A stretch of DNA of 24,000 nucleotides from Spirosomataceae bacterium (GCA_965249815.1 CBDFMV010000003.1:2574218-2598217); one strand, 5' to 3'; shown: positions 14,145 to 24,000, counted from the first letter of the stretch. Program-made: numbers and translations. The notes: generated from the sequence alone by a model not told the origin.

Positions 14145-14218
14145 GGTCCGGTAGTTCAGTTGGTTAGAATACCTGCCTGTCACGCAGGGGGTCGCGGGTT
14201 CGAGTCCCGTCCGGACCG
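14145..14218 (+). tRNA. tRNA-Asp (anticodon GTC)
   Basis: Cloverleaf folded by hand. The acceptor stem is GGTCCGG/CCGGACC. The D-arm is GTTC-AGTTGGTTA-GAAT. The anticodon stem CCTGC/GCAGG carries the loop CT-GTC-AC. The T-arm is GCGGG-TTCGAGT-CCCGT, the discriminator is G, and no CCA is encoded. Confidence 0.93.
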
Positions 14219-14227
14219 CTGATAACA

Positions 14228-14272
14228 AAAGTAAGCCCTTGACTTTCAGCGAGTTAAGGGCTTACTTTTTTA
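14228..14272. terminator. Bidirectional rho-independent terminator between tRNA-Asp and the convergent 1259-aa gene
   Basis: The stem pairs AAAGTAAGCCCTT (14228-14240) with AAGGGCTTACTTT (14256-14268), leaving a 15-nt loop. It is followed by a TTTTT run on the plus strand and by TTGTTAT on the minus strand. Confidence 0.7.
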
Positions 14273-14336: not shown

Positions 14337-17300
14337 TCAATCATCTTGTGCGAATTGCCGCCGCCGTTCAGCGTCAGCATACTTTTCATAGCGCCCGATA
14401 ATCTGTTCCAGGTGTTGAATGTGCCCCAGGTAAGGTAAATGCGTTGGCATTCGCCGGACTTGTGCCACCACCTGTTTTAACTGGTCAGCCCTCATTTGGT
14501 CGAAGTTGAAATCCGCTCCACCCCCTCCCCCGTGAGGTGCCCAGTCAATCATTTTAAACTCGCTCAACGAACGGTTGATAGATAGGAACTCTCGAATGCA
14601 GAAGGACCATTCTTTCTCTAAACCAACCTCTAAAAGGGCTTGGGTCAAACTTTCGATTTCTTTGGGTTCCCTGTGATACTCCTGTACAAAGGCTCGCAGA
14701 AAAGCGATTACCGTTTCTTTCGAGTTTGGTAGCACCTGCTGAAAAAATGATTTGTATCTTCCATGAAGAAAATCATAGCGAGATTTGCTTTTCATCAGCT
14801 TAATAACCTTCATCGCCCAGCCAATAGAATCTTCTAATTGCCAAATAAAACCCAAGTTGTCGATTTCCGGATGGCTAATGTGGTCAGACTGGCGCTCGTA
14901 GTGTGCTTCCACGAATTCAAGTAGGAATCCTGGGTCTAACGTTAACAAAGCCTGTAGATTTCGTCGGTCGAAGTCGTAATGTCCGGTACGAGTGTGTCCA
15001 AACTGGAGAATATATGCCTTTTTTAGCAAAGGCAAATCCGCGATGGGGTCAAAGCGACTGATGCTTTCGCTAAAAAAATCGTATTCCAGATTGTACCAGA
15101 TTCCCTTTGTCTCGTATCGCTTAGTCAAAGCAGTTAAAACGTCGCGGTATAACGTAGGACGGTGAGGAAGGTACTTGTTCCAAATTTGGTCCCTAAAGTA
15201 CAATCCTTGCAGGGTGGATTGTTCATAAAACAGTATCAGTTGCTCCGCATAAAACGGTGTGATTACTTCAGGAGCGAGCAGGCCCCAAAAAGCCAGTTTC
15301 CATTCTTCCCTGTGGAAAGCAGCACCGGAGAATATTTGGTGCCACCGTTCAACTTTGCAGTCTATCTGTCCGAATATTTGGTGGATGACGTATGGAATAC
15401 CAAAATGCAGCGGCCAGTCATATTGGGAAAACAGAATTATGGTGCGTTCAAACAAGGTCTTGTCTGGGCCATCCGCTACCCCTCTCAAAATTGCTACAAG
15501 TTGTTTATCGAAGGATTCGCCTTCGCACGCTTTGTAACTGTATAACGCCATCACTGCGTTGAAAAACTCGTCAATGGCACCTTCACTGCTGAGATCAAGG
15601 TTTTCGAGAAGTTCTGATTGCTTTTTCCGCTTGTACTCCTCCTCATTCGTCCAAATTTCGTCACCGGCATTTTGGCCACGGATACGGTTCCATTGCATTA
15701 GGAGATAGAAATCGTATTGCTGATTGTGAAAGTGATTCGTCAGGGCCTCCATCTCATCCGAATATATGCCTTTCCACTCCAATAATCGAACGTACTCATG
15801 GGCAAAGTGGCAATCTTCAAAATCATTAGGAGAGAAGTATTCATAGATTAATGGAATTAGGCGTTCCATGTCAAACTGCCGGTACTCCTTATCTTCTCCC
15901 CGATGGAAGGTTTTCAAATATGCGTAAATCACTTGCCGTAATTCCTGAGGATAAGCGGGAAGTTGCCCGCGCACAAATTGCCAGAGGCTTTCTCGGAACG
16001 ACAGGAAGGGTTCACGATAAGGCAACGGAAGGCGAGTAAAGGTCACTAACCGACCTTTTGATGAATTTGACTCAAACTCAATTCGCAAAAATGAGGGAAC
16101 CAGTGCCACTACCAGCCGCCTCGCTTCGGAGTTGCCTGTAGAAGCCTGGTTAATTAGAAAATCAAAATACGCCGCTTGCCTGAGTTCCGGGTACGGCGTG
16201 TCGTCAGGACGAAACGAGAGGCGGTCATTAACTTTTTTGACAATCTCTTCCGAAGACTTGGGGTTCTGTTTAGCTATTAGCAATAGGAGTTCAAGGGCAG
16301 TTTCAAAATGCTCGTTGACTCCCTCTAAGAAGTGGAATAATAAGGTCAATCTCTTCTCAAGCGCTGTATTGCCGGTTATGCCATGCCAAGGATTCTCTTC
16401 CCAGACGGCCTGTAAATCAGGAAGTAGATAGGCAAACTGATGTAGATAGGCGAGTGTCTCAGTTGGCAAGGCGAAGTAGAAGATTTCAAGAAACGCGAAA
16501 GCCTTCTCATCATCTTCGCGCACCGAGTGGAAGTATTGGTGAGTTACCTCCCGGATATCAGCGATGGTTCGTTGCTGGTCGAGGACGTTCAATACACCGT
16601 AGAATGCGTCGCGGATGCGGTGAGGATATTCTTCAAAAAAGTTCGTTAGGAGCGTTTCTACACTTAAGAACTTTCTTTCGATGAAGGCCAGGAACACCGC
16701 ATAAGTAGCTAAGTTTTGGTCCGATATCTTGAACAAGCTCTGGTCGTTCATGTACACATCCGCCAGCTCATCTTTTTCCAAGGCTGACAGCTCAGCAGCG
16801 AATGTGTCCCGACTCAGGCCAAAAGCCTGACTGAGTTGTTTGCAGAAAGATTCATCGAGAAGGTCAATTTGCCGAAAAACGGCCAGCAGGCCCAATACTT
16901 TCAATCGCGTTGGGTCACTAAGCAAATGGTTATCTTCCGCGTCGGTCAGGTTGTCGTAGTAGGTTACGAACAAATCGGTGGCATCGTTCAGGGCCAAAAT
17001 ATTCTGTTCTTTTTTAGCGAGGCGGGCAGCCATGATAGCCAAGCGCGGATTCCCATTAGCTAAAAACCCAATTCGCTGCTGAAAAAGGGGATTCCGAATT
17101 CCAAAAGGTTCTGCACTGATTAATTGATTAATCTGCTCATCAGTGAACTTCTCCAAGAAATAGGAATCCGATTGATACGTCTTCAAGTGCCTTTGCACCA
17201 CGTTTAACGCGTAATCCCGAACGGTTAGGATGACCTTGAAATGGACATCCCGTTTCGCGTACAGGTATTCCAGCGTCTGAACCAGAATAGGTGTCTGCCG

Positions 17301-18116
17301 ATTGGCGTCGTCTATAAGAAAGAGGTATTTCTGCCCTGGGCGTACTAAATCGCCGAGGTCTTCAAGGAGGGGAGCGAATTTGTTGGTAATGCAAATAGGA
17401 GTGTAGCCTTCATTCTGCTTACAGAATTCACGGAGTGCCTCCAGAGCCAGCTTTGTTTTGCCAACGCCCGGTGCCCCCGACAAAATCGCAATGGTGTGCT
17501 GGTTGAGAAGGCTCAGGAATGAGGCTAAATCGTCTGAGCGGTGAAGGAAAGGGTTTGACAAAGGGTTGTTTTCGCCAATGGACTTGCGTTCCTGAGCGGC
17601 AATAAATTCGTCCGGTGTAAGCAGTTGCAGTGTCTCACCAGGAAGTCCGAGGTACCGACGGGCAAGTTGGGGGAAATCGTTGTGGATTGCCAGGGCCAAA
17701 CTGTCCAGGTTAATGAGTTCCAATCGGATGGTTCGTGGGCAAGCCTGCCGAAGCGCTTGGTCTTCTTCAGTAGTCAGCCTGCCAGCGAATGCCAGGGTGA
17801 TGCGGTCAATCTGCTGCGGTTGCAGACCTGTTTTGGCTTCGTCCAAGCACTTTGCCAAATCGTCATGCAGTTTTCCCGCGAGAGACCTCTGCTGTTTCGT
17901 GTACTCAATCAGTACGTATTGTCCACTTGGTAGGACTACATAGGTGTCAGGCGTACCCTTCACCGTTTGCATCTTCCCTGCTTGAGTACCTGTCCGGGTG
18001 ATTTGCCGGAACTCGGCCCCGTACTGGCAGAACAGGTATTCATCGCATAGGCGTTGAAAGGTAGCGGAGTCAACTCGTAAGAGTGCTCCCTCGATTTCGG
18101 TCAGGCGCTGGTTCAT
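14337..18116 (-). CDS. Large P-loop NTPase (AAA+/STAND-like) with a nuclease-like N-terminal domain and a long helical C-terminal region; candidate single-gene antiphage protein
   Basis: 1259-aa uninterrupted ORF in the AT-richer island. Walker A 'GAPGVGKT' is at aa 214-221 (nt 17454-17477) and Walker B 'YLFLIDDANR' at aa 264-273. 'VILTVRDY' is sensor-1-like and 'NGNPRLAIMAARLA' sensor-2/Arg-like. The N-terminal roughly 160 aa carry 'GTPD(57)TYVV...YVLIE(71)YTK(74)', reminiscent of Mrr/PD-(D/E)xK nucleases. About 850 C-terminal residues show no enzymatic motif I recognise. The CDS call is secure; the function is inference. Confidence 0.85.
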   Translation of the reverse strand: MNQRLTEIEGALLRVDSATFQRLCDEYLFCQYGAEFRQITRTGTQAGKMQTVKGTPDTYVVLPSGQYVLIEYTKQQRSLAGKLHDDLAKCLDEAKTGLQPQQIDRITLAFAGRLTTEEDQALRQACPRTIRLELINLDSLALAIHNDFPQLARRYLGLPGETLQLLTPDEFIAAQERKSIGENNPLSNPFLHRSDDLASFLSLLNQHTIAILSGAPGVGKTKLALEALREFCKQNEGYTPICITNKFAPLLEDLGDLVRPGQKYLFLIDDANRQTPILVQTLEYLYAKRDVHFKVILTVRDYALNVVQRHLKTYQSDSYFLEKFTDEQINQLISAEPFGIRNPLFQQRIGFLANGNPRLAIMAARLAKKEQNILALNDATDLFVTYYDNLTDAEDNHLLSDPTRLKVLGLLAVFRQIDLLDESFCKQLSQAFGLSRDTFAAELSALEKDELADVYMNDQSLFKISDQNLATYAVFLAFIERKFLSVETLLTNFFEEYPHRIRDAFYGVLNVLDQQRTIADIREVTHQYFHSVREDDEKAFAFLEIFYFALPTETLAYLHQFAYLLPDLQAVWEENPWHGITGNTALEKRLTLLFHFLEGVNEHFETALELLLLIAKQNPKSSEEIVKKVNDRLSFRPDDTPYPELRQAAYFDFLINQASTGNSEARRLVVALVPSFLRIEFESNSSKGRLVTFTRLPLPYREPFLSFRESLWQFVRGQLPAYPQELRQVIYAYLKTFHRGEDKEYRQFDMERLIPLIYEYFSPNDFEDCHFAHEYVRLLEWKGIYSDEMEALTNHFHNQQYDFYLLMQWNRIRGQNAGDEIWTNEEEYKRKKQSELLENLDLSSEGAIDEFFNAVMALYSYKACEGESFDKQLVAILRGVADGPDKTLFERTIILFSQYDWPLHFGIPYVIHQIFGQIDCKVERWHQIFSGAAFHREEWKLAFWGLLAPEVITPFYAEQLILFYEQSTLQGLYFRDQIWNKYLPHRPTLYRDVLTALTKRYETKGIWYNLEYDFFSESISRFDPIADLPLLKKAYILQFGHTRTGHYDFDRRNLQALLTLDPGFLLEFVEAHYERQSDHISHPEIDNLGFIWQLEDSIGWAMKVIKLMKSKSRYDFLHGRYKSFFQQVLPNSKETVIAFLRAFVQEYHREPKEIESLTQALLEVGLEKEWSFCIREFLSINRSLSEFKMIDWAPHGGGGGADFNFDQMRADQLKQVVAQVRRMPTHLPYLGHIQHLEQIIGRYEKYADAERRRQFAQDD

Positions 18117-18169
18117 TATAATAAATGGATGTTTTCCGAGTAAACGCTTGAAATTTTTGTGAGTTCCAT

Positions 18170-18199
18170 TTTGATATAACTTTTTTTACTATACATTTG
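18170..18199 (+). promoter_or_regulatory. Candidate Bacteroidetes-type promoter for the hsdS'-hsdM-...-CBASS gene string, possibly giving a leaderless transcript
   Basis: TTTG (18170-18173), an 18-nt spacer, then TACATTTG (18192-18199, matching TAnnTTTG). The motif ends 4 nt before the ATG at 18204, so the predicted start site falls at or near the start codon. It sits in an 87-nt AT-rich divergent intergenic region. Confidence 0.3.
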
Positions 18200-18203
18200 T
18201 GCC

Positions 18204-18797
18204 ATGATTCAACCTCTGGCCACCCTTGCCCGTATTCAATTAGGGACTACCCAACTCAGGGACGAAGGGGAAGGTGGAGTGCCGTTGGTGCAGGTGGGGG
18301 CCTTTGACAAGTACGGACGCATAATTCCAGACAACCCACGTCCGTTCAGCACGACTACCGCTGATATTCCTCAACGTGCCTGGGTTAAACCAGGGGATGT
18401 GCTATTGGCCGGAAAAGGAAGTCGGAACACCGCAGTCTATTACCGTCATGAGTACCCAGTTGCTGTAGCCTCTGCCGCATTTTTTATTCTACGGGTCATT
18501 GAGCCTGCCCTTTTGTTACCCGAGTTTCTTGCTTGTTACCTGAACCAGCCTGAACCTCAAGCACAAATGAAAAACCTTGTCAGTTCGTCGATTACCGTTC
18601 CAACCCTCAATAAAAGAGACCTGCTTGACCTACGAATTCCATTACCTCCTTTAGTTGTTCAGCGCCGCTTAGTGAATTTCTATAATGCGTTTCTTGAAAT
18701 CCACGACCTGAACCAGCACTTAACTAATCAATACGAGAAACTCCTCCATCAATGCTTTTTCCAGACTATCAGCCCGGATCTCAACAACCCGGAATAG
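18204..18797 (+). CDS. hsdS: Half-size Type I restriction-modification specificity subunit (single TRD HsdS)
   Basis: 197 aa with one target-recognition domain followed by the canonical junction 'LRIPLPPLVVQRRLVNFYN' (PLPPL.EQ-type motif) and a coiled C-terminal helix. It is about half the length of the full HsdS downstream. Confidence 0.7.
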   Translation: MIQPLATLARIQLGTTQLRDEGEGGVPLVQVGAFDKYGRIIPDNPRPFSTTTADIPQRAWVKPGDVLLAGKGSRNTAVYYRHEYPVAVASAAFFILRVIEPALLLPEFLACYLNQPEPQAQMKNLVSSSITVPTLNKRDLLDLRIPLPPLVVQRRLVNFYNAFLEIHDLNQHLTNQYEKLLHQCFFQTISPDLNNPE

Positions 18798-18838
18798 CTA
18801 ACACGGATCCATCTAATTCAGGCCTATCCAGTTCGGGT

Positions 18839-20383
18839 ATGAAACTGATTTCAGCCGCCGCCATCAACGGGGCCGTCTGGCGGGCCTGTGACACGTTTCG
18901 GGGTGTCATCGACCCCACGCAGTACAAGGACTACATCCTGACGTTCCTGTTCCTAAAGTATCTGTCGGACCTCTGGAAAGACCGATTCCAGTTTTACCTG
19001 AGCCGGTACAACGAAACTTTCGATAATTGCCCCCGTACGCAGCGTGCAATGGAACAGTTTGAGCGGTTCCGGTTGCCAGAGGAGTCTCGCTACGAGTACC
19101 TCTACGACCAGCGCAACGCCACTGACATCGGCGAGAAAGTAGACATTGCCCTCGAACACCTCGAAGAGTCTAACCGCACTAAACTGGAAGGAGTGTTTGG
19201 CGACATCAGCTTCAATTCAGAAAAACAACTTGGGCCTACCCGCGACCGAAACCGTCGAATCAAAAACCTCATCGAGGATTTCAAAAATATTGACCTGACT
19301 CCCTCGCATCTGGAAAGTAACGACGTCATCGGCGACGTCTACGAATTCCTCATTGAACGTTTCGCTTCTGATGCGGGCAAAAAAGCCGGTGAATTCTATA
19401 CACCTTCGGCGATTTCTACGCTACTGGCACGTCTGATGACTCCGCAGCCGGGTAGCCGTATTGCCGACCCTACTTGTGGTTCTGGTTCATTACTTATTAA
19501 AGTAGGCCAGCAGGTAGGTTCGCGGAACTTCGCTCTCTACGGGCAGGAAATCAACCGCAGTACCTACGCGCTGGCCCGAATGAACATGTTTCTCCACGGC
19601 TTTGACGACGCCATCATACGCTGGGGGGATACACTTAATAACCCGCTGCTGCTCGAAAACGACCGGCTCATGAAGTTCGACGTGGTGGTAGCCAATCCGC
19701 CGTTTTCGCTCGATAAGTGGGGAGCCGAAGATGCCGCAAAGGACCGCTACGGGCGATTTCATCGCGGTACTCCACCCAAATCGAAAGGTGATTTTGCGTT
19801 CATTTCCCACATGATTGAGACCACCTATGAGGGCAAAGGGCAGGTAGGCGTCATCGTACCTCATGGTGTCTTGTTCCGGGGCAGTACGGAAGGCTTGATT
19901 CGCCGGAAATTGATTGAAGAGAATCTGCTCGAAGCCGTCATTGGCTTACCCGCGAACTTGTTTTTCGGTACGGGCATACCCACAGCCATTCTGCTTTTCA
20001 ACCGTTCTCGTACGGGAAGTGCCAATACGGATGTGCTTTTCGTGGATGCCAGTCGTGATTACGCTGATGGCAAAAACCAAAGTGCGTTACGCCCCGAGCA
20101 CATCAATCGTATTGTCGATACGGTACAAACATTCCGTCAGACACCTGATGGTCCGGCGGGTTTGGTGGCCGATAAATATGCGTATCGTGTTACGCTGGAT
20201 GAAATCCGCGAGAACGATTACAACCTCAATATTCCACGCTATGTGGATACTTTCGAGGAGGAGGAACCCATTGACATTCGGGCTACTCAAGCTGAAATTA
20301 CCCAGTTAGAGGCACAGTTGGTTAATGCCAAAGCGCAAATGCAGCGGTACTTACAGGAGTTGGGATTTCAAGATGCTGACTAA
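18839..20383 (+). CDS. hsdM: Type I restriction-modification N6-adenine DNA methyltransferase subunit M
   Basis: Start taken at ATG 18839 (MKLISAAAINGAVWRACDTFRG...), giving 514 aa. The HsdM_N-like region has 'YKDYILTFLFLKYLSD'. The SAM motif I is 'ADPTCGSGSLL' and the catalytic motif IV is 'VVANPPFS'. The track ORF from 18752 is a 5' extension. Confidence 0.93.
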   Translation: MKLISAAAINGAVWRACDTFRGVIDPTQYKDYILTFLFLKYLSDLWKDRFQFYLSRYNETFDNCPRTQRAMEQFERFRLPEESRYEYLYDQRNATDIGEKVDIALEHLEESNRTKLEGVFGDISFNSEKQLGPTRDRNRRIKNLIEDFKNIDLTPSHLESNDVIGDVYEFLIERFASDAGKKAGEFYTPSAISTLLARLMTPQPGSRIADPTCGSGSLLIKVGQQVGSRNFALYGQEINRSTYALARMNMFLHGFDDAIIRWGDTLNNPLLLENDRLMKFDVVVANPPFSLDKWGAEDAAKDRYGRFHRGTPPKSKGDFAFISHMIETTYEGKGQVGVIVPHGVLFRGSTEGLIRRKLIEENLLEAVIGLPANLFFGTGIPTAILLFNRSRTGSANTDVLFVDASRDYADGKNQSALRPEHINRIVDTVQTFRQTPDGPAGLVADKYAYRVTLDEIRENDYNLNIPRYVDTFEEEEPIDIRATQAEITQLEAQLVNAKAQMQRYLQELGFQDAD

Positions 20384-20434: not shown

Positions 20435-21466
20435 ATGGCTGAGTTGTCTGACCAATTTACGGAAGTCGTCAACCTGATTCAGCAAGCCCGTGGCCGCGCT
20501 GTACAGCGGGTCAACAGCGAATTGATTGACCTGTACTGGAACGTTGGTGCCTACATCAGCCGCAAGGTGACCGCCAGCGAATGGGGTGACGGAACCGTGA
20601 ATCAACTGGCCGACTTCATCCGGCAGCACCATGCGGAGTTGCGGGGTTTCAATCGAAGGGGGTTGTACCGCATGAAGCAGTTTTACGAAACCTACCATCC
20701 GGTTCATGAGAATGTGTCGGCACTGCTGACACAAATTAGCTGGACCAATCACCTGGCTATTCTATCGCAGTGCAAGACCAGCGAAGAACGGCAATATTAC
20801 CTGCTTCGGAGTGCCCAAGAGCGATACAGTTCCCGGGAACTCGAACGCCAGATTGACAGTGGTCTGTTTGAGCGCACGGTGCTGGCCACCGCCCAACGGC
20901 CAGATACCGTTCGGCAACTGCCGCAGCAAACATCGGATGTGTTTCGGGATAGCTACGTATTTGAGTTTCTGGATTTGCCCGAACGTCACGATGAAACCGA
21001 CTTACAACGGGCCCTGATTCTCAACCTAAGTAAGTTTCTGTTGGAAACTGGTAGGCAGTTTACGCTTGCGGGCGAGAACGTGCGAATTCAGGTAGGCAAT
21101 CAGGATTTTTACATTGACCTGCTGCTGTACCACCGGACCTTGCAATGCTTAGTGGCTGTCGAGCTGAAAGTGACGAAGTTCAAACCCGAACACCTCGGGC
21201 AGTTGAATTTTTACCTCGAAGCACTCGACCGCGACCACCGATTGCCCCACGAAAACCCAAGCATTGGCCTGCTGCTCTGCACGAGTAAAGATAGCCAAGT
21301 TGTGGAATACGCCCTAAGTCGGAGCCTTTCGCCGACGTTGGTGGCCGATTACAGCCGTCAACTAATCGACAAACACCTGCTGGAAGCCAAAATAGCCGAA
21401 CTCTATCACCAAGCTCAACAAATAGCTGATGGCACCCTAACTCCTACAACGACTGATGGAAACTGA
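20435..21466 (+). CDS. DUF1016 / YhcG-family PD-(D/E)xK nuclease-domain protein embedded in the Type I RM operon
   Basis: 343 aa. The N-terminal 'VNSELIDLYWNVGAYI' and 'SWTNHLAIL' are typical of DUF1016. The C-terminal nuclease core is 'DFYIDLLLYHRTLQCLVAVELKVTKFKPEHLGQLNFYL' (D...ELK). The stop overlaps the hsdS start by 11 nt. Confidence 0.85.
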   Translation: MAELSDQFTEVVNLIQQARGRAVQRVNSELIDLYWNVGAYISRKVTASEWGDGTVNQLADFIRQHHAELRGFNRRGLYRMKQFYETYHPVHENVSALLTQISWTNHLAILSQCKTSEERQYYLLRSAQERYSSRELERQIDSGLFERTVLATAQRPDTVRQLPQQTSDVFRDSYVFEFLDLPERHDETDLQRALILNLSKFLLETGRQFTLAGENVRIQVGNQDFYIDLLLYHRTLQCLVAVELKVTKFKPEHLGQLNFYLEALDRDHRLPHENPSIGLLLCTSKDSQVVEYALSRSLSPTLVADYSRQLIDKHLLEAKIAELYHQAQQIADGTLTPTTTDGN

Positions 21467-22673
21467 ACTGATACCGTTAGCAACCAAAAACATTGCTCAC
21501 CAGCTACCAGACGGATGGGAATTGAGTAGATTAGGAATGCTGGTAAAATTCGTGAATGGCTATGCTTTTAAACCAGAAGATTGGAAAACGACGGGTTTGC
21601 CAATTATTCGCATTCAAAACCTGAATGACGCCAACGCCAGCTATAATTACTATGATGCTAAAGTTCCAGAACGATACTATGTACGTAAAGGTGATTTACT
21701 ATTCGCATGGTCAGGTACGAAAGGAGTCTCTTTTGGAGCAAGAGTTTGGAAAGGTGAATTAGCAATTCTGAACCAACATATTTTTCGGGTTATACCAACC
21801 AAAATTGACTCAGATTATTGCTATTACCTTCTCAGAGGGGCACAAGAAGCGGTTGAAAAAAATGCACATGGTTTCAAATCGACATTCGTACATGTTACGA
21901 AAGGCGAATTAGAGAAAGTTAAAGTTACCATTCCCCCCTTTGCCGAGCAGCGCAAAATCGTCGGCATTCTCGCCACCTGGGATGAAGCCATCCAAACCGC
22001 CCGGAACCTACTGACGGTAAAGCAAAAACGCAAATGGGGATTGATGCAACAATTGCTTACAGGGCAAGTTCGTCTTTCGGGGTTCTCAGAAGCATGGCGA
22101 GAGGTGAAAATTCGTAACGTAGCTCATGAAGTAAGCAAGCGTAACAAAGCAGACAAAGCGCTTAAGGTGCTTTCATGCACAAAATACAACGGATTAGTAG
22201 ACTCACTGGAATACTTCGGTAGAAAAATTTACAGCGATGACCTCAGCACATACAAAATTGCTCCAAAGAATTGCTTTGCATACGCAACTAACCATATCGA
22301 AGAAGGATCAATAGGGTACCAATCTAAGTACGATGAAGCATTAATCAGCCCTATGTACACAGTCTTTAGGACAGATAAGACCGTTGACGATGCATTTCTA
22401 TACTCCGTATTGAAAAGTGAGCGGTACGTCCAGATATACCAAAAAAACATGACGGGTTCAATCGATCGGCGCGGAGGCCTTCGTTGGGAAGAATTTTCCA
22501 ACATCAAGCTCAGCCTTCCTAACCTCGTAGAGCAACAGGCCATAGCCTCAATGCTCATCGCCGCCGATGAGGAAATCAGGTTGGCAAGCGCCGAAGTTGA
22601 TGCCCTAAGTCGGCAGAAGCGGGGATTGATGCAACAGTTGCTAACGGGGCAGGTGCGCGTAAACGCAGATTAA
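21456..22673 (+). CDS. hsdS: Full-length Type I restriction-modification specificity subunit S (two TRDs)
   Basis: 405 aa with two TRDs. Each is followed by a conserved junction, 'IPPFAEQRKIVGIL...KWGLMQQLLTGQVRL' and 'LPNLVEQQAIASML...KRGLMQQLLTGQVRV'. Confidence 0.92.
   Translation: METELIPLATKNIAHQLPDGWELSRLGMLVKFVNGYAFKPEDWKTTGLPIIRIQNLNDANASYNYYDAKVPERYYVRKGDLLFAWSGTKGVSFGARVWKGELAILNQHIFRVIPTKIDSDYCYYLLRGAQEAVEKNAHGFKSTFVHVTKGELEKVKVTIPPFAEQRKIVGILATWDEAIQTARNLLTVKQKRKWGLMQQLLTGQVRLSGFSEAWREVKIRNVAHEVSKRNKADKALKVLSCTKYNGLVDSLEYFGRKIYSDDLSTYKIAPKNCFAYATNHIEEGSIGYQSKYDEALISPMYTVFRTDKTVDDAFLYSVLKSERYVQIYQKNMTGSIDRRGGLRWEEFSNIKLSLPNLVEQQAIASMLIAADEEIRLASAEVDALSRQKRGLMQQLLTGQVRVNAD
22036..22657 (+). 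repeat. Intragenic direct repeat of the hsdS conserved region (two 37-nt copies 585 nt apart)
   Basis: GGGGATTGATGCAACAATTGCTTACAGGGCAAGTTCG (22036-22072) compared with GGGGATTGATGCAACAGTTGCTAACGGGGCAGGTGCG (22621-22657). The first 16 nt are identical and there are 5 mismatches overall. Both encode GLMQQLLTGQVR. Confidence 0.9.
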
Positions 22674-22685
22674 CAATACAACAAG

Positions 22686-23792
22686 ATGAAAAACGGCGAC
22701 GAACCACAGTCCTTTCGAATCCTGTCCATTGACGGCGGAGGCATCCGGGGAATCATTCCCGCCCGTTTTCTCTGTGATCTTGAAAGTGATGTCAGTCACG
22801 ACAAAGGAGAGGCTGTCCGTTTGTGTGACTACTTCGACTTGATTTGCGGTACGTCAACGGGTGGAATTATTGCAATTGGGTTGGCACTGGGTATGTCAGC
22901 GGCTGAAGTGTTGAATCTGTACAAGAATAACGCGAGTACCATCTTCGGACAGTCGTCTTGGTGGCTTGGGTTTTCTAAAAACGTTCGACGCCTGGCTTAT
23001 CCTAAACATTCCAGTTTAGGGTTGACGACGGTATTAAAAGCAGAGTTCGCCCGGTTTTCAGAAAATGGAGATACACGGATTGGTCACGCACGAACCAGAT
23101 TGGCTATTCCTGCTTTTCTGGCATCAGAAGGTAAGCCACGGGTATTCAAAACTTCGCACGACATGGAGTTGAAGCGCGATTACCAAATACCAGCCTACCA
23201 AGTAGCACTGTCAACCAGCGCGGCTCCTACTTACTTTTCGGCCCATACTTTTGAGTATGAAGACAATCGGACGAAGAGCAACAACAAGCTCACCAATTTA
23301 ATAGATGGTGGCGTATTTGCGAATAACCCAGCATTGATAGGCATATCTGAAGCACTGGCGCTGGGCTTTCCCGTCAGCAGCATCAAGCTCTTGTCATTAG
23401 GGACGGGTTCAGAATCCTTCAAAGAACCGCATCCAAAAAACCGATTTTATAACTTGAAGCCAGCTTGGGGAGTCAGCTATTGGCTTAACCCTTTTGCCGG
23501 GGCACCTCTCATCGAAATGATGATGCAAGCCAATTCTGAAAGTATAGACAATACCGTTAAAATTCTTAGTCGGGGATTAGGACGAGCCGAACGAAGTGTT
23601 TTCCAGTACGACCGAGTGCAAGTTCGGTTCGAGTCGAAAAAAGAACGGGTGGGTTTGGATTCGAGTCGGAAGAAAGAATTGGAGTTTCTCGAAGCGAAGG
23701 GAAAACACCTCTACGATTTACACGGAGGTCCGCTTACCCGTAGTTACTTCGACCAAAAAATTACGCCTTATACACCTTCATTCTCACTTTAA
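22686..23792 (+). CDS. capV: Patatin-like phospholipase, CapV-like CBASS effector
   Basis: 368 aa. The oxyanion motif is 'DGGGIRG', the nucleophile elbow 'GTSTGG' (GxSxG) and the catalytic Asp motif 'DGGVFANNP'. It lies directly upstream (11-nt gap) of a CD-NTase-like gene, the same capV-then-cyclase order as in Vibrio cholerae. Confidence 0.8.
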   Translation: MKNGDEPQSFRILSIDGGGIRGIIPARFLCDLESDVSHDKGEAVRLCDYFDLICGTSTGGIIAIGLALGMSAAEVLNLYKNNASTIFGQSSWWLGFSKNVRRLAYPKHSSLGLTTVLKAEFARFSENGDTRIGHARTRLAIPAFLASEGKPRVFKTSHDMELKRDYQIPAYQVALSTSAAPTYFSAHTFEYEDNRTKSNNKLTNLIDGGVFANNPALIGISEALALGFPVSSIKLLSLGTGSESFKEPHPKNRFYNLKPAWGVSYWLNPFAGAPLIEMMMQANSESIDNTVKILSRGLGRAERSVFQYDRVQVRFESKKERVGLDSSRKKELEFLEAKGKHLYDLHGGPLTRSYFDQKITPYTPSFSL

Positions 23793-23803
23793 AAGAACAC
23801 AAG

Positions 23804-24000
23804 ATGGCCAATTGTCACTCTCTCTTCATCACCTTCAACGACGATGAACTGAAGCTTACCGGTACGAAAGAAACGCGAATGCGAACCTCCCGCGAGGACT
23901 TACGGAAACGTATTCGTAAGCACTTTGCCGAAAAGCACCCTGAATACAAACCTAAATTTTACATTCAAGGGTCTTACAAAATGCGGACAGTAATCCGCAC
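23804..24000 (+). CDS. cGAS/DncV-like nucleotidyltransferase (CD-NTase), 5' partial (runs off the window)
   Basis: My translation gives MANCHSLFITFNDDELKLTGTKETRMRTSREDLRKRIRKHFAEKHPEYKPKFYIQGSYKMRTVIR. The layout is 'F..F...I.L', then 'R..LR.RI..HF', then 'P.F.IQGSY...T.IR'. It parallels the CD-NTase N-terminus and its Gly-Ser motif (DncV 'WTQGSFQYDTLNRP'). The catalytic DxD would lie just beyond position 24000. Confidence 0.6.
   Translation, partial: MANCHSLFITFNDDELKLTGTKETRMRTSREDLRKRIRKHFAEKHPEYKPKFYIQGSYKMRTVIR

What the first reader, a model, noticed from the sequence alone, without database searches (positions are those of the whole stretch)
14337..18116. 1259-aa nuclease-like / P-loop NTPase / helical-repeat protein: candidate uncharacterised Avs/STAND-like single-gene defence system
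This is one very long ORF transcribed divergently from a Type I RM-CBASS string, inside the AT-richer island that starts right after tRNA-Asp. The sequence shows a tripartite layout. (1) An N-terminal domain of about 160 aa has a 'PD...(13 aa)...E-Y-T-K' arrangement after a beta-strand-like hydrophobic run, resembling Mrr/Cap4-type PD-(D/E)xK effectors, although the E-x-x-K spacing is non-canonical. (2) An NTPase module has Walker A GAPGVGKT, Walker B LFLIDD, a TVRD sensor-1-like motif and a GNPRLA arginine motif. (3) About 850 aa of Leu/Phe/Tyr/Glu-rich, apparently helical sequence carry no catalytic motif. Effector-NTPase-sensor is the established architecture of antiviral STAND (Avs) and related NTP-dependent conflict systems. 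I cannot place this protein in a named family from memory. Architecture plus defence-island context make it the best candidate for a previously undescribed system in this window.
Basis: partly seen in the sequence, partly recalled or inferred. Interest (0 to 1): 0.85.

Follow-up and report, generated by a model that had tools for sequence, protein, structure and literature searches.

The report
Untested Avs-like nuclease–STAND immune gene
This is one intact 1259-residue gene in a defence island whose protein has a DNA-cutting-type domain, an ATP-driven switch and a large helical sensor, which is the layout of known bacterial antiviral "Avs" receptors; it belongs to a large, untested, mostly Bacteroidota family, so it is a good but unsurprising candidate.

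Summary
Pfam places the NTPase in nSTAND3, the same Pfam domain reported in Avs5, above its curated cut-off. AlphaFold2 models are confident (pLDDT 86 and 87.5). In Foldseek searches against the PDB, both the N-terminal domain and the NTPase-plus-sensor part have Avs4 as their best match. The N-terminal domain also matches NucS, Card1, FokI and other PD-(D/E)xK nucleases, though all those matches are weak.

The conserved set is GTPD57, E71, K82, D86 and C90, so the catalytic lysine probably sits on the following helix.

The family is large: 1317 clusters at 50% identity, and relatives in 427 stretches of a scan of one genome per species. It is mostly Bacteroidota, also occurs on Leptospira and Bacillus plasmids, and has no conserved neighbouring gene. 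About half of 14 annotated contexts hold defence or TIR genes. No PADLOC Avs model matches it, and I found no experimental test.

Verdict: a probable single-gene antiviral STAND that works like Avs4, and a new member of a known kind. Function and trigger are inferred, not shown. Interest is moderate (0.4), because a 2026 census already counts about 200 defence-associated STAND clades.

The parts
14337..18116 (-). Whole gene: 1259-aa REase-like / nSTAND3 NTPase / helical-sensor protein (stop codon 14337-14339).
   Evidence: ORF list and translation. Full-length homologues at 100% coverage.
17637..18116 (-). N-terminal PD-(D/E)xK-type (Mrr-like) nuclease-fold domain, aa 1-160. Its conserved residues are F20, Q21, D25, G54-T55-P56-D57, E71, K82, D86 and C90.
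   Evidence: AF2 gives pLDDT 86 and pTM 0.77 with an alpha-alpha-beta-beta-beta-alpha-beta-alpha-beta order. Foldseek against the PDB puts Avs4 8dgf_B first (E 8.6e-3, prob 0.99), followed by NucS, Card1, EcoO109I, PspGI, FokI and N.BspD6I.
17946..17957 (-). Invariant G54-T55-P56-D57, the 'PD' acidic residue just before strand beta2.
   Evidence: Invariant in 39 and in 28 sequences. Strand 58-61 follows it in the model.
17904..17906 (-). E71, a near-invariant acidic residue in strand beta3. It is the E of 'ExK', but position +2 is Thr rather than Lys.
   Evidence: An hhalign alignment to a Mrr_cat protein is in register (GTPD with GEID, VEYT with VEIK) but is not significant at E 0.075.
17871..17873 (-). 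K82, an invariant lysine on the helix after beta3, spaced i, i+4, i+8 with D86 and C90. It is the candidate relocated catalytic lysine.
   Evidence: Invariant. Helix 79-91 in the model. Its role is inferred.
17532..17636 (-). Conserved linker, aa 161-195 (consensus LDTGQI..F..EY....TPLDN.F).
   Evidence: Alignment. Lower pLDDT of 59-66.
17142..17531 (-). STAND nucleotide-binding domain, aa 196-325. It holds Walker A (17454-17477), Walker B (17307-17324) and sensor-1 TVR300.
   Evidence: Pfam nSTAND3 at aa 200-315, E 6.1e-10, above the gathering score. Invariant motifs. Five-strand alpha/beta core in the AF2 model.
16932..17141 (-). Helical domain HD1, aa 326-395, carrying the invariant GNPRLA (355-360) GxP-type motif.
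16707..16931 (-). Winged-helix domain, aa 396-470.
   Evidence: Helix-strand-helix-helix-strand pattern in the AF2 model, model residues 217-278. Weak HTH_20 and ArsR-type matches at aa 398-454.
14340..16706 (-). C-terminal all-alpha solenoid, aa 471-1259, with one beta-hairpin at aa 680-697. This is the presumed sensor.
   Evidence: AF2 gives pLDDT 87.5 and pTM 0.74. It is the least conserved part of the protein: 28-36% mean pairwise identity against 44-51% for the regions before it. No Pfam, NCBIfam or PADLOC match falls here.
14227..14269 (.). Hairpin with an A-run on one side and a T-run on the other, lying between tRNA-Asp and the gene's 3' end. It is a likely bidirectional terminator.
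   Evidence: Terminator-like site with 19 pairs. Sequence read.
18117..18203 (.). 87-bp AT-rich divergent intergenic region between this gene and the half-size hsdS. It presumably holds the promoters.
   Evidence: Sequence. The only sigma-70-like match overlaps the start codon, so no promoter is established.
14145..14219 (+). tRNA-Asp marking the left edge of the low-GC island that carries the gene.
   Evidence: ARAGORN and the GC profile. No repeat of the tRNA 3' end occurs within the window.

Best explanation
This is a single-protein antiviral STAND receptor of the Avs type.

Shown here: the protein has an N-terminal restriction-endonuclease-fold domain, an nSTAND3 STAND NTPase with all nucleotide-binding motifs intact, a winged helix and a ~790-residue helical solenoid. 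It sits alone in a horizontally acquired defence island next to a tRNA gene.

Inferred by analogy with Avs3, Avs4 and Avs7:
- In uninfected cells the protein is a closed, ADP-bound, auto-inhibited monomer.
- The C-terminal solenoid binds a conserved phage protein of unknown identity.
- Binding opens the NTPase, and ATP binding (K220, D269/D270, R300) drives oligomerisation.
- Oligomerisation brings the N-terminal nuclease domains together into an active assembly (D57, E71, probably K82).
- That assembly degrades DNA indiscriminately and aborts the infection.
For: - STAND identity: Pfam nSTAND3 above its cut-off in the query and in 39 of 39 relatives. Avs5 is reported to carry the same Pfam domain. 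Walker A, Walker B, sensor-1 and GxP residues are invariant.
- Structure of aa 186-1259: the AF2 model has pLDDT 87.5. Its best PDB matches are Avs4 (E 5e-9), followed by NLRP5, NLRP7, SAMD9, Avs5, MalT, Apaf-1 and Cdc6/Orc1.
- Structure of aa 1-190: the AF2 model has pLDDT 86. Its best match is the Avs4 chain, followed by PD-(D/E)xK nucleases.
- Conservation: the putative catalytic residues of the effector are invariant or nearly so across about 25-50% identical relatives.
- Window context: low-GC island beside a tRNA, holding type I RM, DUF1016/PDC-S02 and CBASS genes.
- Distribution: patchy and mobile. 427 of the stretches found in a scan of one genome per species encode a relative, across several phyla. 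There are 14 plasmid records. No neighbour is conserved; the best is shared by 8 of 79 loci.
- Neighbours elsewhere: type I RM (L005, L006); DUF1016 (L090); SLFN_AlbA_2, HEPN and DUF4145 (L091); Mrr, a Septu-like ATPase with HNH, and PDC-S41 (L092); an integrase beside a run of small genes with a glucosaminidase, which may be a prophage (L095).
- Immediate neighbours in the 79 GTDB loci include type IIG and type III RM genes, GajB and reverse transcriptases.
- About 10% of loci have a TIR-like gene that overlaps the STAND start codon.
- The sensor is the most divergent region.
Against: - No experiment shows defence, toxicity or nuclease activity.
- The nuclease-fold matches are individually weak (Foldseek E 8.6e-3 to 0.1, TM 0.26-0.45). 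No sequence profile (Pfam, PADLOC, PDB) recognises the domain.
- The canonical lysine of (D/E)xK is Thr in most members.
- No PADLOC Avs model matches any of 39 members.
- Five of 14 annotated contexts show no defence or mobile-element gene within 10 kb (L001, L004, L088, L093, L094), and a sixth (L003) shows only a toxin-antitoxin pair and a transposase. The striking type I RM adjacency did not generalise: seed searches found it in 3 of 80 GTDB loci.
- TM-scores to Avs4 over the large model are low (0.20-0.23), so the sensor fold itself is not shown to be Avs4-like.
Confidence: 0.72

Rival explanations
1. The protein is a conflict system aimed at mobile elements rather than phages. It would serve plasmid or integrative-element competition, exclusion or addiction, sensing a plasmid or conjugation protein with the same STAND-nuclease mechanism.
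For: Full-length homologues sit on 13 Leptospira plasmids, in one case beside parA and parB, and on a B. cereus megaplasmid. Several chromosomal copies lie next to integrases, recombinases or transposases. No homologue occurs in 50,697 phage records.
Against: The Avs families whose triggers are reported in the papers I read all sense phage proteins (PMC13581612). Neighbouring RM, CBASS and Septu-like genes are classical anti-phage systems. Plasmid carriage is common for anti-phage genes as well.
Confidence: 0.12
2. The N-terminal REase-fold domain is catalytically dead. It would act as a DNA-binding or oligomerisation module, with the killing activity supplied by a partner or with the protein acting as a regulator.
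For: The lysine of the (D/E)xK motif is replaced by Thr in most members. About 10% of loci carry a TIR-like gene that overlaps the STAND start codon and could be the real effector there. A subgroup has an extra ~165-aa N-terminal domain.
Against: D57, K82 and D86 are invariant, E71 is nearly so, and Q21 and D25 are also invariant across very divergent members. That pattern is what an active site looks like, and active-site residue migration is well known in this superfamily (my knowledge: Steczkiewicz et al. 2012). About 90% of loci, including the window, have no partner gene.
Confidence: 0.1
3. The protein is a housekeeping or regulatory STAND with no role in biological conflict, comparable to a MalT- or AfsR-type signal-transduction ATPase.
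For: MalT and Cdc6/Orc1 appear among the structural matches. Several homologues sit between ordinary metabolic genes. The 2026 census finds non-defence STAND clades interspersed with defence clades.
Against: There is no DNA-binding output domain beyond the STAND winged helix. The protein has a nuclease-fold N-terminus, a foreign base composition, an extremely patchy distribution across phyla and variable insertion sites. It has no conserved operon partner or regulated target genes.
Confidence: 0.05

Closest known systems
Avs4 (AVAST type 4; SeAvs4, PDB 8dgf), a portal-sensing antiviral STAND with an N-terminal Mrr-like nuclease
   Same: It has the same order of parts: an N-terminal restriction-endonuclease-fold effector, a STAND NTPase, a winged helix and a long helical sensor in one polypeptide. 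It is the best PDB match for both halves of the protein.
   Different: No detectable sequence similarity exists: phmmer and profile searches of the PDB find nothing beyond the P-loop, and no PADLOC Avs model matches. The NTPase falls in Pfam nSTAND3. TM-scores are low (0.20-0.45). The nuclease motif has Thr in place of the (D/E)xK lysine. The trigger is unknown.
Avs5 (SIR2-STAND; PDB 9jap, 9nc9)
   Same: It is reported to carry the same Pfam NTPase domain, nSTAND3. It appears among the structural matches at E about 1e-4. It is also a single-gene system.
   Different: The Avs5 effector is a SIR2 NADase and the protein forms filaments. Here the effector is a nuclease-fold domain and the sensor is about twice as long. 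Avs5 protein models were not among the PADLOC hits.
Avs3 and Avs7 (Cap4-nuclease STANDs that sense terminase and major capsid protein)
   Same: They provide the mechanistic template: ligand-induced, ATP-dependent tetramerisation assembles an N-terminal PD-(D/E)xK nuclease that cuts dsDNA (PMC13581612).
   Different: Their effector is the Cap4 clade of nucleases, and their NTPase and sensor families are different. They did not appear among the top 50 PDB matches listed.
SAMD9/SAMD9L and the bacterial Avs9 and Avs6 families
   Same: SAMD9 (PDB 9zjs) is among the structural matches of the NTPase-plus-helical region. PMC12680541 reports strong structural similarity between Avs5 and SAMD9/9L.
   Different: Avs9 has AlbA_2, SIR2, NTPase, TPR and OB parts, and Avs6 has a PNP effector. 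None of those parts is present here.

Membership tests
STAND NTPase superfamily | P-loop NTPase with Walker A GxxxxGK[T/S] and Walker B hhhhDD. | tested here: met
   GAPGVGKT at 214-221 and LFLIDD at 265-270. G214, G217, G219, K220, D269 and D270 are invariant in 39 sequences and again in 112 sequences.
STAND NTPase superfamily | Sensor-1 arginine, a GxP motif in the helical domain, and a winged-helix domain after the NTPase core. | tested here: met
   TVR300 and G355-N-P-R-L-A are invariant. The AF2 model shows a helical domain and then a winged helix. Structural matches include Avs4, NLRP5, NLRP7, Apaf-1, MalT and Cdc6/Orc1.
Pfam PF20720 nSTAND3 | Score above the family's gathering threshold. 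| tested here: met
   39.4 bits against a cut-off of 27.2 at aa 200-315. 39 of 39 family members match.
PD-(D/E)xK (restriction endonuclease-like) nuclease superfamily | Alpha-beta-beta-beta-alpha-beta core fold. | tested here: met
PD-(D/E)xK (restriction endonuclease-like) nuclease superfamily | Catalytic D at the start of beta2 and a (D/E)xK motif in beta3. | tested here: inconclusive
D57 is invariant and E71 is conserved in at least 90% of sequences, but position +2 is Thr (consensus VEYTT). The invariant K82 on the next helix is a candidate substitute.
Pfam Mrr_cat (PF04471) and other sequence-defined REase families | A significant profile match. | tested here: not met
   The N-terminal domain has no Pfam match even at E up to 0.1. 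hhalign against one Mrr_cat protein gives an in-register alignment at E 0.075 and probability below 1%.
Avs (antiviral STAND) as a functional class | Tripartite effector, STAND and sensor parts in a single gene. | tested here: met
   No conserved partner gene exists.
Avs (antiviral STAND) as a functional class | Enrichment next to known defence genes. | tested here: inconclusive
   Six of 14 annotated contexts hold recognised defence genes and two more hold a TIR-like partner. PADLOC hits among 149 immediate neighbours exist but could not be counted per protein. No background rate was computed.
Avs (antiviral STAND) as a functional class | Demonstrated anti-phage activity and activation by a phage protein. 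| not testable with these tools
   I found no experimental report for this family.
Avs1-Avs5 as defined by PADLOC-DB v2 models | A match to the family's HMM. | tested here: not met
   Only P-loop-level hits were found: PDC-S73, mad8 and MkoA for the query and 39 relatives.
Avs7-Avs24 and the 684 sensor clusters of Lee et al. 2026 | Listing in that paper's supplementary tables, or sensor structural similarity. | not tested
   The supplementary files are not held for either version of the paper. Profile and phmmer searches of all PDB chain sequences found nothing beyond the P-loop.

The most novel reading that the evidence does not exclude
This is a large, Bacteroidota-centred Avs family whose ~790-residue sensor recognises a phage component that no characterised Avs family detects, for example a conserved protein of Bacteroidota or crAss-like phages. 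It would fire a variant Mrr-like nuclease whose catalytic lysine has moved from strand beta3 to the following helix. About a tenth of the family has additionally recruited a translationally coupled TIR-like partner or an extra N-terminal domain.
Probability: 0.4. Interest if true: 0.55.

Novelty: new member of a known kind. Interest (0 to 1): 0.4.

Why it matters
If confirmed, this would add an experimentally untouched Avs family that is abundant in Bacteroidota. That phylum dominates gut, soil and aquatic communities, yet its phage defences have rarely been tested, because published Avs screens concentrated on Enterobacteriaceae homologues (PMC13581612).

Identifying the family's trigger would extend the map of which phage proteins bacteria use as molecular patterns. 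The variant nuclease active site and the optional TIR-like partner would show how effectors are swapped on one sensor chassis.

It would not change the concept, because effector-STAND-sensor immunity is already well established.

Tried and rejected
- PDB sequence searches with the protein, with the family profile and with the N-terminal profile found only P-loop noise.
- The exact protein was not on record in the contig index, so the source genome and organism could not be named. Relatives and the surrounding genes suggest a Cytophagales-type Bacteroidota host, but that is inference only.
- The idea that the family is specifically linked to type I RM came from 3 of the first 6 contexts. I rejected it after seed searches found type I RM genes in only 3 of 80 GTDB loci.
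- A search for a conserved operon partner found none; the best neighbour family is shared by 8 of 79 loci.
- The PADLOC and Pfam batch scans of 149 neighbours report only the 25 commonest families, each seen at most twice. A per-locus defence score could not be derived from them.
I redid it with protein ids.
- The profile search of 1.84 billion representatives with the N-terminal domain was saturated by the family itself. It gave the family size but no link to another architecture.
- I looked for an att repeat of the tRNA-Asp 3' end within the window and found none.
- The extra N-terminal domain of the P0008 group had no hit in any library.
- Supplementary tables of the 2026 STAND census were not available, so I could not look up accessions.


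Full report
**Observation.** The window holds a 1259-codon ORF at 14337-18116 on the minus strand.
- P56-D57, then 13 residues, then E71-Y-T-K74.
- Walker A GAPGVGKT (214-221).
- Walker B LFLIDD (265-270).
- TVRD (298-301).
- GNPRLA (355-360).

tRNA-Asp lies at 14145-14219 on the plus strand. GC content falls from about 0.60 to 0.45-0.52 from that point to the end of the window.

Upstream of the ORF and divergently transcribed lie five genes: a half-size HsdS (18204-18797), HsdM (18752-20383), a DUF1016/YhcG PD-(D/E)xK protein (20435-21466, PADLOC candidate PDC-S02), a full HsdS (21456-22673) and a patatin phospholipase that matches PADLOC's 'Effector: Phospholipase' models at 9e-91. An ORF starting at 23804 reads like the N-terminus of a CD-NTase and runs off the window. 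Left of the tRNA the genes are ordinary: NIF3, a zinc-ribbon protein, a TPR protein and a LytTR two-component pair. The observation and its context are confirmed.

**What the parts are.** Pfam recognises only the NTPase. nSTAND3 (PF20720) matches aa 200-315 at 39.4 bits against a curated cut-off of 27.2, with weaker AAA_16 and NB-ARC matches. All 39 aligned relatives match nSTAND3. A study of Avs5 reports the same Pfam domain in SIR2-STAND Avs5 proteins.

In alignments of 39 and of 112 relatives, several NTPase residues are invariant: the Walker A glycines and K220, D269/D270, T298 and R300, and G355/N356/R358/A360. V299 is invariant in the first alignment and nearly so in the second.

AlphaFold2 on aa 186-1259 with 112 sequences gave pLDDT 87.5 and pTM 0.74. 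The model shows a five-stranded alpha/beta core, a helical domain carrying GNPRLA, a winged helix (about aa 396-470), and then an almost purely helical solenoid to the C-terminus with one beta-hairpin at aa 680-697.

Foldseek of that model against the PDB put Avs4 bound to a phage portal (8dgf) first at E 5e-9. After it came NLRP5, NLRP7, SAMD9, Avs5 (9jap, 9nc9), MalT, Apaf-1 and Cdc6/Orc1. TM-scores are low (about 0.2). That supports a shared STAND-plus-helical-repeat architecture but does not show that the sensors are equivalent.

**The N-terminal domain.** No sequence library recognises it. It is nevertheless among the better conserved parts of the protein, at 45% mean pairwise identity against 28-36% for the sensor segments.

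The conserved residues are F20, Q21, D25, G43, G54-T55-P56-D57, E71 (in at least 90% of sequences), K82, D86 and C90. D57 sits immediately before strand 2 and E71 sits in strand 3, as in PD-(D/E)xK enzymes.

An hhalign comparison with a Mrr_cat protein is not significant (E 0.075) but is in register: FQxLC pairs with FEQLC, GTPD with GEID, and VEYT with VEIK. I therefore read this as a Mrr-like nuclease variant whose lysine has probably moved to the invariant K82 on the next helix. That kind of relocation is known in this superfamily; this last point is my own knowledge and was not tested.

**The family.** A search of 5.8 billion proteins found 208 relatives. Nearly all are 1240-1276 aa and cover 100% of the query. 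The closest are from Spirosoma and Fibrisoma (50-51% identity) and Arsenicibacter (40%). The rest, at 26-30%, come from Flavobacterium, Chitinophaga, Saprospira, Tenacibaculum, Adhaeribacter and many metagenomes. All are named 'hypothetical' or 'nSTAND3 domain-containing NTPase'.

A profile of the N-terminal domain finds 1317 clusters at 50% identity (652 at E up to 1e-30). Most of the top 150 are ~1240-1260 aa with the domain at residues 1-190, and the shorter entries are probably fragments. A few carry a ~160-residue N-terminal extension.

In a scan of one genome per species, 427 of 451 matched stretches encode a relative. Most are Bacteroidota. Others come from Ignavibacteriota, a few Bacillota, Stenoxybacter and some oddly labelled metagenome bins.

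Fourteen plasmid records hold a match, 11 of them over at least 80% of the query: 13 from Leptospira and one from a 472-kb Bacillus cereus plasmid. None of 50,697 phage records holds one.

**Genomic context elsewhere.** Clustering the ORFs within 10 kb in 79 loci showed no conserved partner. The commonest neighbour family occurs in 8 loci. The gene is therefore a stand-alone unit that lands in many different places.

I obtained 14 annotated contexts:
- Six hold recognised defence genes: the window itself; L005 (type I RM with a SLFN_AlbA_2 protein and a serine recombinase); L006 (type I RM with PDDEXK_2 proteins); L090 (DUF1016); L091 (DUF4145, SLFN_AlbA_2, HEPN); and the Bacillus plasmid L092 (a Mrr endonuclease, a PDC-M62A/PtuA-like ATPase with an HNH protein, and a PDC-S41 helicase).
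- Two have a TIR-like gene directly upstream (L089, L095). In L095 the gene also lies beside a tyrosine integrase and a run of small genes that includes a glucosaminidase, which may be a prophage.
- One has a toxin-antitoxin pair and a transposase (L003).
- Five show nothing of the kind (L001, L004, L088, L093, L094).

Among the 149 immediately adjacent genes in the 79 GTDB loci, PADLOC finds type IIG and type III RM genes, GajB helicases, reverse transcriptases and DrmMI. Pfam finds integrases, resolvases and Fic proteins.

The type I RM adjacency seen early on did not generalise: seed searches found it in 3 of 80 loci. The association with defence and mobile genes is real but moderate, and I did not compute a background rate.

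**Variants.** In about a tenth of loci a ~236-240-aa gene overlaps the STAND start codon (L029, L037, L038, L050, L053, L070, L089; in L095 it ends 4 nt upstream). Its C-terminal half matches the PADLOC CBASS 'TIR effector' model (E 1.6e-7 and 1.2e-6) and weakly matches nucleoside deoxyribosyltransferase. Another subgroup has a fused ~165-residue N-terminal extension that no library recognises. The window copy has neither. Only 87 bp separate it from the divergent hsdS fragment, and a hairpin at 14227-14269 separates its stop codon from tRNA-Asp.

**Mechanism.** Shown here are the domain order, the intact nucleotide-binding motifs, the conserved acidic and basic residues of the nuclease-fold domain, and the foreign, mobile, defence-island setting. 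Everything about how it works is inferred from Avs3, Avs4 and Avs7:
- A closed, ADP-bound monomer in uninfected cells.
- Binding of a conserved phage protein by the helical sensor.
- ATP-dependent oligomerisation through the NTPase.
- Assembly of the N-terminal nuclease domains.
- Indiscriminate DNA cleavage that aborts the infection.

I put about 0.7 on this. The rivals are an anti-plasmid or inter-element role (0.12), a dead nuclease domain with another effector (0.10), and a non-conflict regulatory STAND (0.05).

**Comparison with what is known.** It works like Avs4: a Mrr-like nuclease, a STAND NTPase and a helical sensor, and Avs4 is the best structural match for both halves. It is not a sequence-level member of Avs4. 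No PADLOC Avs model matches the query or any of 39 relatives, and PDB sequence searches find nothing. It shares its NTPase Pfam family with Avs5 but lacks SIR2. It lacks the AlbA_2, SIR2, OB and PNP parts of Avs9 and Avs6.

A 2026 census describes 589 prokaryotic STAND clades, 198 of them defence-associated, 684 sensor structural clusters and named families up to Avs24, with testing focused on Enterobacteriaceae homologues where possible. This clade is probably inside that census, but the supplementary tables are not held, so I could not check.

**Verdict.** It is a new and untested member of a known kind, not a new kind of system. Interest is moderate (0.4). The family is large, centred on an under-studied phylum, and has a variant active site and optional TIR partner. 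However, another uncharacterised Avs-like clade is what the field now expects to find in a defence island.

Noticed in passing
L089 9288-10004; L095 9286-9996; also L029, L037, L038, L050, L053 and L070 (gene directly upstream of the STAND gene): About 10% of family loci have a ~236-240-aa gene that overlaps or abuts the STAND start codon. Its C-terminal half matches the PADLOC CBASS 'TIR effector' model (E 1.6e-7 and 1.2e-6) and weakly matches Pfam Nuc_deoxyrib_tr. This is a two-gene variant, and it is absent from the window.
   Followed up: partly
Proteins P0008, P0031, P0146 and P0212; locus L028 162-4400: A subgroup carries a ~165-residue N-terminal extension ('MKAFISYS...') in front of the nuclease-fold domain. 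It has no hit in Pfam, PADLOC or PHROGs.
   Followed up: partly
window 18204-18797 and 18752-20383: A half-size HsdS (197 aa, one target-recognition domain) overlaps the start of hsdM by 46 nt. A full-length hsdS lies further on at 21456-22673. No hsdR is present in the window.
   Followed up: no
window 20435-21466: A DUF1016/YhcG PD-(D/E)xK gene (PADLOC candidate PDC-S02, E 6e-124) sits between hsdM and hsdS. A DUF1016 gene also lies directly upstream of the STAND homologue in the Bacteroides locus L090.
   Followed up: partly
window 22686-24000: A patatin CBASS-type phospholipase (22686-23792) is followed by an ORF starting at 23804. Its first 66 residues ('...KFYIQGSYKMRTVIR') look like a CD-NTase N-terminus, and it runs off the window.
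   Followed up: partly
window 14227-14269: A 19-pair hairpin flanked by an A-run and a T-run lies between tRNA-Asp and the STAND stop codon. It is a likely bidirectional terminator.
   Followed up: no
window 22036-22072 and 22621-22657: A 37-nt direct repeat (86% identity) occurs inside the full hsdS. It encodes the repeated 'GLMQQLLTGQVR' segment that follows each of its two halves.
   Followed up: no
Plasmid hits H1-H12; loci L092 (Bacillus cereus plasmid) and L093 (Leptospira interrogans pLiSL23): Homologues occur on 13 Leptospira plasmids, in one case next to parA and parB, and on a 472-kb B. cereus plasmid beside a Mrr endonuclease, a Septu-like ATPase with an HNH protein, and a PDC-S41 helicase. 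None occurs in phage records.
   Followed up: partly
L014, L022, L028, L062: Family members appear in metagenome bins labelled Methanobrevibacter, Limnohabitans, Dojkabacteria and Planctomycetota. This could be horizontal transfer or binning error; I did not resolve which.
   Followed up: no
window 14490-14552 (aa 1189-1209): A conserved glycine-rich loop lies just before the last two helices of the protein. The family consensus is W-R-G-N-G-G-x-x-S-G-D-V, and the window reads WAPHGGGGGADFNF. G1201 is nearly invariant. Its significance is unknown.
   Followed up: no
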